Shown piece by piece: positions 28,413 to 43,888 of a DNA stretch of 64,000 nt. Each line of letters starts with the position of its first letter. Within the stretch, counting starts at the first letter, position 1. The stretch comes from Escherichia coli (GTDB lineage: Bacteria > Pseudomonadota > Gammaproteobacteria > Enterobacterales > Enterobacteriaceae): the NCBI RefSeq assembly GCF_016903815.1, contig NZ_CP069973.1; one strand, written 5' to 3'. The notes below the pieces were generated by a model. The model was not told the origin of the DNA, did not search any database, and saw only the letters and a program-made list of their open reading frames with translations. The translations under genes were made by a program, and so were the position numbers.

Positions 28413-28596
28413 ATTTCTCTGAGATGTTCGCAAGCGGGCCAGTCCCCTGAGCCGATATTTCATACCACAAGAATGTGGCGCTCCGCGGTTGGTGAGCATG
28501 CTCGGTCCGTCCGAGAAGCCTTAAAACTGCGACGACACATTCACCTTGAACCAAGGGTTCAAGGGTTACAGCCTGCGGCGGCATCTCGGAGATTCC
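28413..28596 (+). ncRNA. ssrS: 6S RNA (SsrS), RNA polymerase sigma70 holoenzyme regulator
   Basis: ATTTCTCTGAGATGTTCGCAAGCGGGCCAGTCCCCTGAGCCGATATTTCATACC...GGCATCTCGGAGATTCCC matches recalled 6S RNA; 3' end +/- 3 nt. Confidence 0.88.
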
Positions 28597-29219: not shown

Positions 29220-29277
29220 GGGCGACACACCTGCATCGCCCTGATTGACATCGTTGATTCTTTGACCTAATTTAGTG

Positions 29278-29418
29278 AGTAAGGGTAAGGGAGGATTGCT
29301 CCTCCCCTGAGACTGACTGTTAATAAGCGCTGAAACTTATGAGTAACAGTACAATCAGTATGATGACAAGTCGCATCATAACCCTTCTCCTTCAAGCCCT
29401 CGCTTCGGTGAGGGCTTT
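29278..29418 (+). ncRNA. sibC: SibC antisense sRNA (type I antitoxin RNA), approximate ends
   Basis: Fully antisense to ibsC; ends in hairpin GCCCTCGCTTCGGTGAGGGC; 5' end estimated from recalled ~140-nt length. Confidence 0.6.
29320..29379 (-). CDS. ibsC: Type I toxin IbsC, 19-aa hydrophobic membrane peptide MMRLVIILIVLLLISFSAY
   Basis: Minus-strand ATGATGCGACTTGTCATCATACTGATTGTACTGTTACTCATAAGTTTCAGCGCTTATTAA; AAGGAG 9 nt upstream; in ygfA-serA spacer. Confidence 0.8.
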   Translation of the reverse strand: MMRLVIILIVLLLISFSAY

Positions 29419-41376: not shown

Positions 41377-42237
<861 letters not shown>

Positions 42238-42431
42238 TCAATATTCCTTTTCAACTGACTCAAAATGGAGAAATACACTCCGCCGCCTTATGACGGGCAG
42301 TCTGACAAGGGTAAACAATAAAGCATAATTTTGCCAAATAGATCACAGATTTCTCATCTGAATCACCTTGCTTTTGGCGAAAAAATCCCCGCAGAGCGGG
42401 GCTCAGACAGATATCAATGTGCGCTTTGTCA

Positions 42432-42529
42432 TGCCGGATGCGGCGTGAACGCCTTATCCGGCCTACAAAAACCTGCAAATTCAATATATTGCAGGATACG
42501 TGTAGGCCTGATAAGCGTAGCGCATCAGG
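42432..42529. repeat. BIME: two inverted REP units with central spacer, mscS-fbaA intergenic
   Basis: GCCGGATGCGGCGTGAACGCCTTATCCGGCCTAC ... GTAGGCCTGATAAGCGTAGCGCATCAGGC. Confidence 0.8.
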
Positions 42530-42594
42530 CAATTTTGCTTTTGGCGAAAAAAAGACCCGCAGAGCGGGCCTTGAGATAAGCAGAAAGGAATATC

Positions 42595-43674
42595 TTACAG
42601 AACGTCGATCGCGTTCAGTTCCTGGAATGCTTTCTCCAGACGAGCGATCATCGAAGTCTGACCGGCACGCAGCCATACGCGCGGATCGTAGTATTTCTTG
42701 TTCGGCTGATCTTCGCCTTTCGGGTTACCCAGCTGACCCTGCAGATAAGCTTCGTTCGCTTTGTAGTAGTTCAGAACGCCTTCCCAGGTTGCCCATTGGG
42801 TATCGGTATCGATGTTCATTTTTACTACGCCGTAGCTTACGGAGTCTTTGATTTCCTGAGCAGTAGAACCGGAACCACCGTGGAATACGAAGTTCAGGCT
42901 GTTGTGCGGCAGGTTGTGTTTCTTGGAAACATATTCCTGAGAATCACGCAGGATGGTCGGAGTCAGAACCACGTTACCCGGCTTGTAAACACCGTGTACG
43001 TTACCGAAGGACGCTGCGATGGTGAAACGCGGGCTGATTTTGCTCAGTTCGGTGTATGCGTAATCAACGTCTTCCGGCTGGGTGTACAGTGCAGAAGCGT
43101 CCATGTGGCTGTTGTCCACGCCGTCTTCTTCACCACCGGTGCAACCCAGTTCGATTTCCAGAGTCATGCCGATTTTGGACATGCGCTCCAGGTATTTAGA
43201 GCAGATTTCGATGTTCTCTTGCAGAGATTCTTCAGACAGGTCGATCATGTGAGAAGAGAACAGCGGCTTACCGGTAGCTGCGAAGTGTTTTTCACCCGCG
43301 TCCAACAGACCGTCGATCCACGGCAGCAGTTTCTTCGCGCAGTGGTCAGTGTGCAGGATAACCGGAACACCATAATGTTCAGCCATCTGGTGAACGTGAT
43401 GCGCACCAGAGATCGCGCCCAGGATAGCAGCACCCTGCGGAACGTCAGATTTCACGCCTTTACCAGCGATAAAGGAAGCACCACCGTTGGAGAACTGAAC
43501 GATAACCGGCGCTTTAACTTTAGCAGCGGTTTCCAGTACGGCGTTGATGGAGTCAGTACCGACGCAGTTTACTGCTGGCAGTGCGAAGTTGTTTTCTTTT
43601 GCTACCTGGAAAACTTTCTGTACGTCATCACCAGTGATTACGCCAGGTTTTACGAAATCAAAAATCTTAGACAT
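42595..43674 (-). CDS. fbaA: Fructose-bisphosphate aldolase class II; start at MSKIFDFVKPG
   Basis: 359-aa protein matching FbaA; Zn-binding His motifs. Confidence 0.96.
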   Translation of the reverse strand: MSKIFDFVKPGVITGDDVQKVFQVAKENNFALPAVNCVGTDSINAVLETAAKVKAPVIVQFSNGGASFIAGKGVKSDVPQGAAILGAISGAHHVHQMAEHYGVPVILHTDHCAKKLLPWIDGLLDAGEKHFAATGKPLFSSHMIDLSEESLQENIEICSKYLERMSKIGMTLEIELGCTGGEEDGVDNSHMDASALYTQPEDVDYAYTELSKISPRFTIAASFGNVHGVYKPGNVVLTPTILRDSQEYVSKKHNLPHNSLNFVFHGGSGSTAQEIKDSVSYGVVKMNIDTDTQWATWEGVLNYYKANEAYLQGQLGNPKGEDQPNKKYYDPRVWLRAGQTSMIARLEKAFQELNAIDVL

Positions 43675-43700
43675 GTCTCTTGTCCTGTATCGTCGGGCCT

Positions 43701-43786
43701 TATACTCGTCATACTTCAAGTTGCATGTGCTGCGTCTGCGTTCGCTCACCCCAGTCACTTACTTATGTAAGCTCCTGGGGATTCAC
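43701..43786. repeat. ERIC/IRU partial element (about half of the 127-bp consensus) in pgk-fbaA spacer
   Basis: ...GTTCGCTCACCCCAGTCACTTACTTATGTAAGCTCCTGGGGATTCAC matches the conserved ERIC arm. Confidence 0.7.
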
Positions 43787-43888
43787 TCTCTTGTCGCCTT
43801 CCTGCAACTCGAATTATTTAGAGTATGAAAAATTGCGTGCTCTAAAAGCGCGCTGAAACAAGGGCAGGTTTCCCTGCCCTGTGATTTT

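What the first reader, a model, noticed from the sequence alone, without database searches (positions are those of the whole stretch)
42365..42585. BIME in the fbaA-mscS spacer flanked by a duplicated about 33-bp terminator-like module
Seen: TGCTTTTGGCGAAAAAA(TC)CCCGCAGAGCGGGG at about 42365-42400 and TTGCTTTTGGCGAAAAAAAGACCCGCAGAGCGGGCC at about 42535-42570 are direct repeats, each forming (on the minus strand) a GC hairpin followed by a T-run, and they flank two inverted REP units (42432-42529). The copy next to fbaA is its likely terminator; the second is a tandem back-up or a footprint of REP-associated duplication. The REP spacer contains an AT-rich TTCAATATATTG tract resembling an IHF-site, suggesting a RIP-type BIME.
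Basis: seen in the sequence. Interest (0 to 1): 0.3.

Follow-up and report, generated by a model that had tools for sequence, protein, structure and literature searches.

The report
BIME-1 repeat that duplicated fbaA's terminator
A known 150-bp E. coli repeat element (BIME-1) sits inside the transcription terminator of the glycolysis gene fbaA and copied that terminator when it inserted, so the element is bracketed by two working terminators; the same footprint at other sites hints at how these elements spread.

Summary
Window 42368-42403 and 42535-42571 are direct repeats: 33 of 37 columns match and the first 18 nt are exact. On the minus strand each is a GC hairpin followed by a U-tract. They bracket a BIME-1: Y REP, L linker with an IHF-like site, and Z1 REP.

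Comparative data explain the structure. About 50 other enterobacterial species have one terminator and no BIME here. In 5,426 E. coli genomes, 3,724 carry the K-12 form. About 1,700 carry a form exactly 167 bp shorter, with one terminator and no BIME. One strain carries two units. The repeat is therefore a target duplication made by BIME-1 insertion, and it now drives loss and amplification of the unit.

Published Term-seq maps RNA 3' ends in MG1655 to both U-tracts.

The pattern is general. Eleven of 34 sampled BIME-1 sites have the same locus-specific terminator hairpin abutting both ends. Four loci with occupied and empty forms, this one included, have a single hairpin in the empty form.

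I found this stated in no paper I could read. The key 1990s papers were not available. Yersinia YPAL elements are a known analogue.

The locus is ordinary. The general footprint is moderately interesting.

The parts
42595..43674 (-). fbaA coding sequence (class II fructose-bisphosphate aldolase); stop codon at 42595-42597.
   Evidence: ORF list. RefSeq annotation of identical sequence.
42535..42571 (-). Module B, the fbaA-proximal intrinsic terminator. Stem-loop about 42552-42572, U7 tract 42547-42553, followed by CGCCAAAAGCAA. This is the copy retained in the short (BIME-less) allele.
   Evidence: Term-seq 3' end at window 42548/42549 in three conditions. Identical to the single module of short alleles.
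42502..42531 (+). Z1-type REP (GTAGGCCTGATAAGCGTAGCGCATCAGGCA), with GTAG first on the + strand. The next 3 nt (42532-42534, ATT) are all that remains of the canonical Z1-side arm.
   Evidence: Inverted repeat I1. Alignment with other BIME-1 copies.
42467..42501 (.). L linker of the BIME-1. It carries the IHF-like site ATTCAATATATTG at 42479-42491 (+).
   Evidence: Unique in the window. Rfam ES036 47.3 bits against a gathering score of 37.6. Conserved across copies. PMC3333891 says the L linker often carries an IHF site.
42432..42466 (-). Y-type REP (TGCCGGATGCGGCGTGAACGCCTTATCCGGCCTAC on the + strand), with GTAG first on the minus strand.
   Evidence: Inverted repeats I1 and I2. Alignments.
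42404..42431 (.). Y-side outer arm of the BIME-1 (CAGACAGATATCAATGTGCGCTTTGTCA). It is a diverged copy of the consensus terminal arm CAGATTGTTGACAAAGTGCGCTTTGTTCA.
   Evidence: Alignments with paralogous BIME-1 copies.
42368..42403 (-). Module A, the mscS-proximal duplicate terminator. Stem-loop 42387-42401, U6 tract 42380-42385, followed by CGCCAAAAGCAA.
   Evidence: Term-seq 3' end at window 42380 in LB OD 2.0. Absent from short alleles and from all outgroup genera.
42368..42534 (.). The 167-bp unit (one module plus the BIME-1). It is present 0, 1 or 2 times in natural Escherichia genomes.
42238..42367 (-). Conserved mscS upstream region, unchanged between long and short alleles. The mscS coding sequence is 41377-42237.

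Best explanation
What it is, as shown here:
- The fbaA-mscS spacer of E. coli K-12 holds one BIME-1. This is a roughly 150-bp repeat element made of an outer arm, a Y REP, an L linker with an IHF-like site, a Z1 REP and a second outer arm.
- It is inserted into the intrinsic terminator of fbaA.
- The ancestral spacer was about 190 nt with one terminator about 22 nt after the stop codon.
- The terminator is present on both sides of the element, as a target-site duplication would leave it.
- At other BIME-1 sites only the 16-26-nt hairpin is duplicated. Here the repeat is 36/37 nt: hairpin, U-tract and CGCCAAAAGCAA. Both copies therefore kept the form of a complete terminator.

How the 36-nt repeat arose is inferred and unresolved. 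One route is a hairpin-only duplication followed by a short conversion that overwrote the Z1-side arm with the sequence next to copy A. The other route is a single step that joined a truncated arm to the target at the TTGC.TTTG microhomology.

How it works now:
- Shown: RNA polymerase leaving fbaA mostly stops at module B.
- Shown: a second 3' end lies at module A.
- Inferred: transcripts ending at module A are read-through products carrying the BIME-1 as a 3' extension. Module A also shields mscS.
- Shown: the two modules act as recombination substrates, so the 167-bp unit is lost precisely or amplified.

How the element inserts is inferred. BIME-1 integrates at the feet of an extruded terminator hairpin, either a cruciform or single-stranded DNA at a replication fork. 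One cut at the 3' foot on each strand, followed by fill-in, would duplicate exactly the palindrome, whatever its length. A hairpin-foot nuclease such as the REP-associated Y1 transposase (RAYT/TnpA_REP) is the obvious candidate. No enzyme was tested.
For: Anatomy and repeat statistics.

The single-terminator state is ancestral:
- About 50 species of Citrobacter, Klebsiella, Enterobacter, Kluyvera, Kosakonia and others have spacers of about 175-195 nt with a single GGCCCGC...GCGGGCC hairpin and T-run.

The BIME and one module behave as one unit:
- 3,724 of 5,426 E. coli genomes have the long form. The rest have a form exactly 167 bp shorter, with one module identical to copy B.
- E. whittamii has the long form. 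Escherichia sp. E1V33 and E. coli SW070917 have three modules and two BIME-1.
- Long and short forms both occur on each of three flank haplotypes, GGTGAT[T/A/G]CAG. This points to recurrent loss or gain.

Generality:
- At satP-mog, ccmH-narP and tsx-yajD the empty allele has one hairpin. The intact occupied allele has that hairpin on both sides of the BIME-1.
- Among 34 distinct BIME-1 sites from metagenome contigs, 11 have flank-to-flank direct repeats scoring 11-22. Mismatched flank pairs gave a mean of 5.8, a 99th percentile of 10 and a maximum of 11 (n = 1122).
- Nine of the 14 copies with both arms intact show the repeat.
- The repeats are 16-26-nt GC hairpins lying 0-3 nt from the element ends in all but one case (6 nt on one side at L111). 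A-runs and T-runs stay outside them.

Function: Term-seq 3' ends fall in both U-tracts (PMC7815308).

Element identity: a 153-nt consensus with imperfect terminal inverted repeats.
Against: - No enzyme, intermediate or new insertion event was observed. The hairpin-foot model rests on footprints only.
- IS200/IS605-type Y1 transposases, the relatives of RAYT, make no target duplications (PMC3333891). A RAYT-based model therefore needs action on both strands.
- About two thirds of sampled sites (23 of 34) show no clear duplication. This may be decay or truncation, as at tsx-yajD in most E. coli, but it could also mean more than one route of insertion.
- The sample was taken with a pattern that requires an intact Y end and L motif. 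The species of origin of the metagenome contigs were not determined.
- At this locus the repeat is longer than elsewhere and the Z1-side arm is missing, so the locus is not a clean example of the rule.
- The direction of change inside E. coli is not resolved for each lineage: secondary loss or an ancestral empty site.
- The 3' end at module A could be a processing or stability product rather than termination.
Confidence: 0.85

Rival explanations
1. Terminator first, BIME second. The terminator was tandemly duplicated for its own sake, as a fail-safe double terminator protecting mscS. A BIME-1 later landed between the two copies by chance.
For: Both copies are competent terminators and both coincide with RNA 3' ends. 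One compensatory double change (G.U in copy B, C-G in copy A) keeps copy A's stem. That would fit selection on copy A.
Against: The 40 rows sampled evenly down the ranking of 5,426 E. coli genomes included no allele with two modules and no BIME. No such allele occurred in any outgroup either. Only the 0-, 1- and 2-unit states were seen, always with the BIME and a module together. At least ten other BIME-1 sites have their own local hairpin on both sides. Independent prior duplications cannot explain that.
Confidence: 0.06
2. The module belongs to the mobile element. The inserted unit was a BIME-1 carrying its own terminator-like hairpin from a donor locus, and its resemblance to the resident terminator reflects a related donor or later homogenisation.
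For: The unit that comes and goes is BIME plus module. The start of the module (TTGCTTTTGGC) resembles the canonical BIME-1 arm (TTGCGTTTGTC).
Against: The module sequence occurs nowhere else in the window. Flanking hairpins at other BIME-1 sites are all different and match their own empty sites. The TTG...TGGC tail is also present in Citrobacter, which has no BIME here.
Confidence: 0.03
3. The long form is ancestral for E. coli and every short allele is a secondary deletion. On this view the repeat tells us only about deletion, not about insertion.
For: E. whittamii and Escherichia sp. E1V33 share the same junctions. Long and short forms share flank haplotypes. An 18-nt exact repeat 167 bp apart is a good substrate for slipped-strand or RecA-independent deletion.
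Against: This is compatible with the main explanation rather than opposed to it. Outside Escherichia the single-terminator state is universal, so an insertion with duplication must still have happened once. It changes only how the E. coli short alleles are read.
Confidence: 0.5

Closest known systems
BIME-1 (also called RIP or RIB elements) of E. coli: Y REP, L linker with IHF site, Z1 REP
   Same: Same composition, order and size. PMC1187871 gives about 140 bp; the consensus built here is 153 nt. Same extragenic position at the 3' end of a transcription unit. Single copy per site. Present or absent among isolates, as reported for BIME-1 loci by Bachellier et al. 1997 according to PMC1187871.
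   Different: The Z1-side outer arm is replaced by a second copy of the host U-tract region, so the flanking repeat is 36/37 nt rather than hairpin-only. Rare genomes carry two tandem units, although BIME-1 is described as single-copy. The papers I could read do not mention a target duplication for BIME-1.
YPAL / RU-2 elements of Yersinia (De Gregorio et al. 2006, as summarised in PMC2229807)
   Same: A roughly 168-bp intergenic palindromic element. Target-site duplications vary from 3 to 26 bp. Targets span or adjoin regions of dyad symmetry. The footprint seen here is the same: 16-26 nt, hairpin-shaped.
   Different: Different genus, and no sequence comparison was made here. The primary paper was not available. 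I did not test whether YPAL is related to REP/BIME or uses the same enzyme.
IS200/IS605 elements and the REP-associated Y1 transposase (RAYT/TnpA_REP)
   Same: These enzymes recognise hairpins and cut at their feet on single-stranded DNA. TnpA_REP cuts 5' or 3' of REP structures in vitro. That activity could explain a duplication delimited by a hairpin.
   Different: IS200/IS605 transposition makes no target duplication. No in vivo BIME mobilisation has been shown. A 2026 preprint still calls the REP insertion mechanism not established.
Insertion with long target duplication (Nobusato et al. 2000, cited in PMC1643837)
   Same: An insertion polymorphism flanked by an unusually long direct duplication of target sequence, recognised by comparing occupied and empty sites.
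   Different: It was described for restriction-modification genes in Helicobacter pylori. It has no link to hairpins or to REP elements.
Tandem (fail-safe) intrinsic terminators
   Same: Two hairpin and U-tract terminators in series after one gene, both marked by RNA 3' ends.
   Different: Here the pair is a by-product of a repeat-element insertion, sits 167 bp apart, and is absent from a third of E. coli genomes.

Membership tests
BIME-1 / RIP / RIB | One Y REP and one Z1 REP in inverted orientation. | tested here: met
   42432-42466 and 42502-42531. The arms are complementary. Both align nearly base for base with 14 other Y-L-Z1 copies. The Y/Z1 naming follows PMC3333891 and my recollection of the consensus sequences.
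BIME-1 / RIP / RIB | A long L linker carrying an IHF consensus site. | tested here: met
   The 35-nt linker contains ATTCAATATATTG, which matches 8 of 9 specified positions of WATCAANNNNTTR. The linker hits Rfam ES036 above threshold.
BIME-1 / RIP / RIB | IHF actually binds the element. | not testable with these tools
   This needs a gel shift or ChIP at this locus.
BIME-1 / RIP / RIB | Extragenic, at the 3' end of a transcription unit, single copy, present or absent among isolates. | tested here: met
   It lies downstream of fbaA. 3,724 genomes are occupied and about 1,700 are empty. Exceptions with two units.
Intrinsic (Rho-independent) terminator, both modules | A GC-rich hairpin directly followed by a U-tract on the transcribed strand. 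| tested here: met
Intrinsic (Rho-independent) terminator, both modules | RNA 3' ends in the U-tract in vivo. | tested here: met
   From published Term-seq, not my own data. Module B in three conditions; module A in LB OD 2.0 only (PMC7815308).
MITE-like transposable element | Terminal inverted repeats. | tested here: met
   In the consensus, the arms CAGATTGTTGACAAA and GAGACTGATGACAAA match at 13 of 16 positions by eye from the consensus printed. The script's own end-to-end comparison, without the 2-nt offset, gave 5 of 30. At this locus one arm is diverged and the other is missing.
MITE-like transposable element | Target-site duplication shown by comparing occupied and empty sites. | tested here: met
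   Four loci. Statistics over 34 sites. The length is variable and set by the hairpin, unlike the fixed stagger of DDE transposases.
MITE-like transposable element | A cognate transposase that mobilises it. | not tested
   No enzyme was examined. RAYT is a candidate from the literature only.
YPAL-type hairpin-targeting repeats | Sequence relatedness to YPAL. | not tested

The most novel reading that the evidence does not exclude
BIME-1 is a discrete 153-bp transposable unit with terminal inverted repeats. It integrates specifically at extruded intrinsic-terminator hairpins. Cuts at the two hairpin feet duplicate the whole palindrome. The direct-repeat hairpins now flanking many BIME-1 copies would then be the first genomic footprint of how REP/BIME elements insert in E. 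coli, and terminators would be their target. The claim also requires that this has not been described before.
Probability: 0.3. Interest if true: 0.65.

Novelty: new member of a known kind. Interest (0 to 1): 0.42.

Why it matters
For this locus alone the stakes are small. It is a well-behaved BIME-1 and two terminators in a housekeeping spacer, and a third of E. coli genomes do without it.

The wider pattern matters more. How REP/BIME elements reach new sites has been open for about 40 years. Recent papers still describe the insertion mechanism as unknown or 'semi-random'.

If the hairpin-sized target duplications seen here are the general footprint of BIME-1 insertion, three things follow:
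- They name the target: intrinsic terminators.
- They constrain the chemistry: cuts defined by DNA structure, not by a fixed stagger.
- They make the question testable, using terminator-bearing trap plasmids and purified RAYT.

The pattern also explains why BIME-1 elements sit at the 3' ends of genes. It shows too that each insertion rewires termination. Usually only the copy beyond the element, in the direction of transcription, keeps its U-tract, which places the element inside the 3' UTR. At fbaA both copies keep it.

Tried and rejected
- Tandem Repeats Finder on the window found nothing, because there are only 1.2 copies of the unit. It did find the 2.2-copy arrays in L006 and L217.
- Apart from ES036, the permissive Rfam hits (naRNA4, GcvB, isrO and several eukaryotic miRNA and snoRNA families) were all below their gathering scores. 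I treated them as chance matches or REP cross-matches.
- The promoter scan gave only a plus-strand hit at 42302-42329, with no excess over shuffles. I did not pursue it.
- The MscS-based scan of reference genomes did not return E. albertii, E. fergusonii or Salmonella. Polarity therefore rests on more distant genera plus E. whittamii and E1V33.
- Bachellier et al. 1997 (PMC1207841), Gilson et al. 1991 (PMC333889), Boccard and Prentki 1993 (PMC413762) and De Gregorio et al. 2006 (PMC1636318) are not held. I cannot exclude that the hairpin duplication was already described there.
- General literature searches for 'excision' or 'direct repeat' returned mostly irrelevant papers.
- I looked for an empty site for L136, which has a perfect 23-nt duplication, in E. 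coli genomes. The flanks are not E. coli.
- I considered and rejected a DDE-type fixed-stagger duplication, because lengths vary from 16 to 26 nt with the hairpin.
- I considered and rejected inverted rather than direct duplication, because loop sequences keep the same orientation in both copies.
- RefSeq MG1655 annotates no repeat feature here.

Full report
**Setting.** The window is E. coli K-12 sequence; positions 42200-42640 are 100% identical to K-12 derivatives. fbaA is 42595-43674 and mscS is 41377-42237, both on the minus strand. The finding lies in the 357-nt spacer between them. Window coordinate equals MG1655 coordinate minus 3,027,570.

**The observation.**
- Copy A is 42368-42403 and copy B is 42535-42571. 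They are direct repeats with an exact 18-mer followed by a 24-mer at 88%.
- Aligned together they give 33 matches, 3 mismatches and one single-base indel.
- The 18-mer occurs only at these two places in 64 kb. No shuffle out of 100 gave two hits.
- On the minus strand both are called terminator-like.
- As RNA, copy B forms a 9-bp stem plus U7 at -14.1 kcal/mol. Copy A forms a 6-bp stem plus U6 at -11.6 kcal/mol.
- One stem position differs by a change on both sides: G.U in B and C-G in A.
- Between the copies lie a Y REP (42432-42466), a 35-nt linker with ATTCAATATATTG (42479-42491) and an inverted Z1 REP (42502-42531). The 131-nt segment between the copies (42404-42534) folds at -51.6 kcal/mol, z = -5.
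- The linker is unique in the window. It is the only part of the region that matches an Rfam family above threshold: ES036, 47.3 bits against 37.6.

**What other genomes show.**
- Of 5,426 complete E. coli genomes, 3,724 carry the full-length spacer. The rest match over a locus 167 bp shorter.
- Alignment shows the short allele has one module, identical to copy B, and lacks copy A and the whole BIME.
- A scan of reference genomes with MscS gave 80 loci. In 55 of these the fbaA end was also found.
- About 50 of those, from Citrobacter, Klebsiella, Enterobacter, Kluyvera, Kosakonia, Buttiauxella and others, have spacers of about 175-195 nt. Each has one GGCCCGC-loop-GCGGGCC hairpin and a T-run about 22 nt after the stop codon. 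One terminator is therefore the ancestral state.
- Within Escherichia, E. whittamii has the long form with a decayed second module. Escherichia sp. E1V33 has three modules and two BIME-1, a 169-bp unit repeated 2.2 times.
- One E. coli strain, SW070917, has the same 2.2-copy array built from K-12-like units.
- The single-base polymorphism just beyond the module, GGTGAT[T/A/G]CAG, occurs in all three states with both long and short alleles. The unit has therefore been lost or gained repeatedly, or shuffled by recombination.
- The repeat is thus both the scar of an insertion and the substrate for later precise deletion and unequal crossing-over.

**The element is larger than two REPs.** In genomes lacking this BIME, the best matches to it are paralogous BIME-1 copies at satP-mog, fepA-entD and ccmH-narP. 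Aligning them shows conserved outer arms: CAGATTGTTGACAAAGTGCGCTTTGTTCAT before the Y REP, and AGTTTTGCGTTTGTCATCAGTCTCA after the Z1 REP. Fourteen intact copies give a 153-nt consensus whose ends are imperfect inverted repeats. At fbaA-mscS the Y-side arm is present but diverged (42404-42431). The Z1-side arm is replaced after GGCAATT by the start of module B.

**The duplication is general.**
- At satP-mog the empty allele has one hairpin, TCCCCCCGCTCGGGGGGAT, followed by T7. The occupied allele has that hairpin on both sides of the BIME-1.
- At ccmH-narP the empty allele has one bidirectional terminator, GCCCGATGGTGATGCCATCGGGC. The occupied allele has it on both sides, with the A-run kept on the left and the T-run on the right.
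- At tsx-yajD the pattern is the same. Most E. coli have since lost the right-hand copy and part of the arm.
- To sample more sites I scanned metagenome contigs with a Y-end plus L-motif pattern. This gave 120 loci and 34 distinct sites.
- I compared the 40 nt outside one end of each element with the 40 nt outside the other end. Eleven sites scored 11-22. Mismatched pairs averaged 5.8, with a 99th percentile of 10 and a maximum of 11 (n = 1122).
- Among the 14 copies with both arms intact, nine show the repeat.
- The repeated segments are 16-26 nt and fold as GC hairpins. They lie within 0-3 nt of the element ends in all but one case (6 nt on one side at L111). Their loops have the same orientation in both copies, so they are direct duplications. 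A-runs and T-runs are excluded.
- One non-E. coli copy (L136) has a perfect 23-nt duplication, which suggests a recent event.

**How this locus differs.** Elsewhere only the hairpin is duplicated, so only one copy keeps the U-tract. Here the repeat also covers the U-tract and CGCCAAAAGCAA.
- The segment from GGCA to the hairpin is 28 nt both here and in the consensus, with 18 of 28 positions identical.
- The target's TTGCTTTTGG resembles the arm's TTGCGTTTGT.
- That target sequence is ancestral, because Citrobacter has TTG...TGGC at the same place.
- Route one: the insertion was canonical and a short conversion from copy A's flank later overwrote the arm, restoring a U-tract to the fbaA-proximal hairpin.
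- Route two: the original joint formed at this microhomology.
- I cannot separate the two routes. E. whittamii and E1V33 already have the present arrangement.

**Function.** Term-seq of MG1655 (Adams et al. 2021, PMC7815308, supplementary file 1) lists these 3' ends:

| MG1655 position | Window position | Module | Condition | Average reads | Class |
|---|---|---|---|---|---|
| 3070119(-) | 42549 | B, fifth U of U7 | LB OD 0.4 | 160,555 | primary fbaA |
| 3070119(-) | 42549 | B, fifth U of U7 | M63 OD 0.4 | 120,854 | primary fbaA |
| 3070118(-) | 42548 | B | LB OD 2.0 | 54,607 | primary fbaA |
| 3069950(-) | 42380 | A, last U of U6 | LB OD 2.0 | 44,902 | orphan |

- Module B is the working fbaA terminator.
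- In stationary phase a comparable amount of RNA ends at module A. The most likely source is read-through transcripts that carry the BIME-1. This is inferred; a separate origin or differential stability is not excluded.
- IHF binding to the linker is expected from the literature on BIME-1 but was not tested.

**Mechanism (inferred).** A duplication whose length equals a palindrome of variable size is not what a fixed-stagger transposase makes. It is what results if each strand is cut at the 3' foot of its own hairpin, in a cruciform or on single-stranded DNA, the element is joined there, and the gaps are filled. Hairpin-foot cleavage is the known activity of Y1 HUH enzymes, including TnpA_REP on REPs in vitro. 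Those enzymes are not known to leave duplications. No enzyme was tested here.

**Literature.**
- BIME-1 composition, size of about 140 bp, IHF site, and presence or absence among isolates are known.
- None of the papers I could read mentions a target duplication or terminator targeting for BIME-1.
- A 2011 review says REPs lack MITE signatures. A 2026 preprint calls the insertion mechanism not established and proposes semi-random insertion.
- The nearest precedent is Yersinia YPAL/RU-2, which has duplications of 3-26 bp at targets with dyad symmetry.
- REP families 'inserted within small palindromes' are noted in other phyla.
- The primary 1990s BIME papers and the YPAL paper were not available, so prior description cannot be ruled out.

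**Verdict.** The locus is an ordinary member of a known family, with an atypically long flanking duplication that leaves two working terminators. The general footprint, BIME-1 flanked by a duplicated target terminator hairpin, is the part worth following up.

Noticed in passing
window 43700-43835 (minus strand), pgk-fbaA spacer: This looks like an ERIC/IRU-type repeat (..GTGAATCCCCAGGAGCTTACATAAGTAAGTGACTGGGGTGAGCG..) lying between pgk and fbaA; the identification rests on recalled consensus sequence. Term-seq lists an 'orphan' 3' end inside it at MG1655 3071314(-), which is window 43744, in all three conditions.
   Followed up: partly
window 42300-42352: The segment upstream of mscS (minus strand ..TGTGATCTATTTGGCAAAATTATGCTTTATTGTTTACCCTTGTCAG..) is strongly conserved from Escherichia to Klebsiella and Enterobacter, while the rest of the spacer is not. 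It is probably the mscS promoter or an operator. The only promoter-scan hit here is on the opposite strand.
   Followed up: no
window 42280-42296 (minus strand): A third, weak terminator-like hairpin (CCGTCATAAGGCGGCGG) lies in the mscS leader. B2-type alleles carry a C at one stem position (CCCGCCATAAGG).
   Followed up: no
window 42467-42509: Rfam family ES036 (CssrF 'sRNA') matches what is simply the L linker of BIME-1, a DNA repeat present many times per genome. The family may describe the repeat rather than a dedicated sRNA gene.
   Followed up: partly
L217 (E. coli SW070917) 304-671; L006 (Escherichia sp. E1V33) 997-1370: These are tandem arrays of 2.2 copies of the 167/169-bp 'terminator plus BIME-1' unit, although BIME-1 is described as single-copy per site.
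   Followed up: yes
L136 (metagenome contig OLIF01000049.1): This BIME-1 has a perfect 23-nt hairpin duplication (AAACGCCGGAGCAATCCGGCGTT). Its flanks match no E. coli genome, so it is a probably recent insertion in another enterobacterial species.
   Followed up: partly
L219 (E. coli L73) 100-320, tsx-yajD spacer: In most E. coli the tsx-yajD BIME-1 has lost its right-hand hairpin copy and part of its arm. This shows how the duplication footprint decays and why many sites score negative.
   Followed up: partly
L028 (Intestinirhabdus alba) and L037 (Entomohabitans teleogrylli), fbaA-mscS spacers of 405 and 494 nt: Both carry independent insertions in the same spacer in other genera. The I. alba insert contains an ERIC-like core (CCCCGGGAGCTTAC..GTAAGTGACCGGGG).
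   Followed up: no
L134 (metagenome contig OLIF01000062.1) 1266-1439: Two pattern matches lie 134 bp apart on one strand. This is an atypical tandem BIME with different REP variants.
   Followed up: no
window 28413-28596, 29245-29395, 1863-1933: 6S RNA (ssrS), a Sib antitoxin RNA and a tRNA gene were found by the whole-window Rfam scan. These are expected K-12 features.
   Followed up: no
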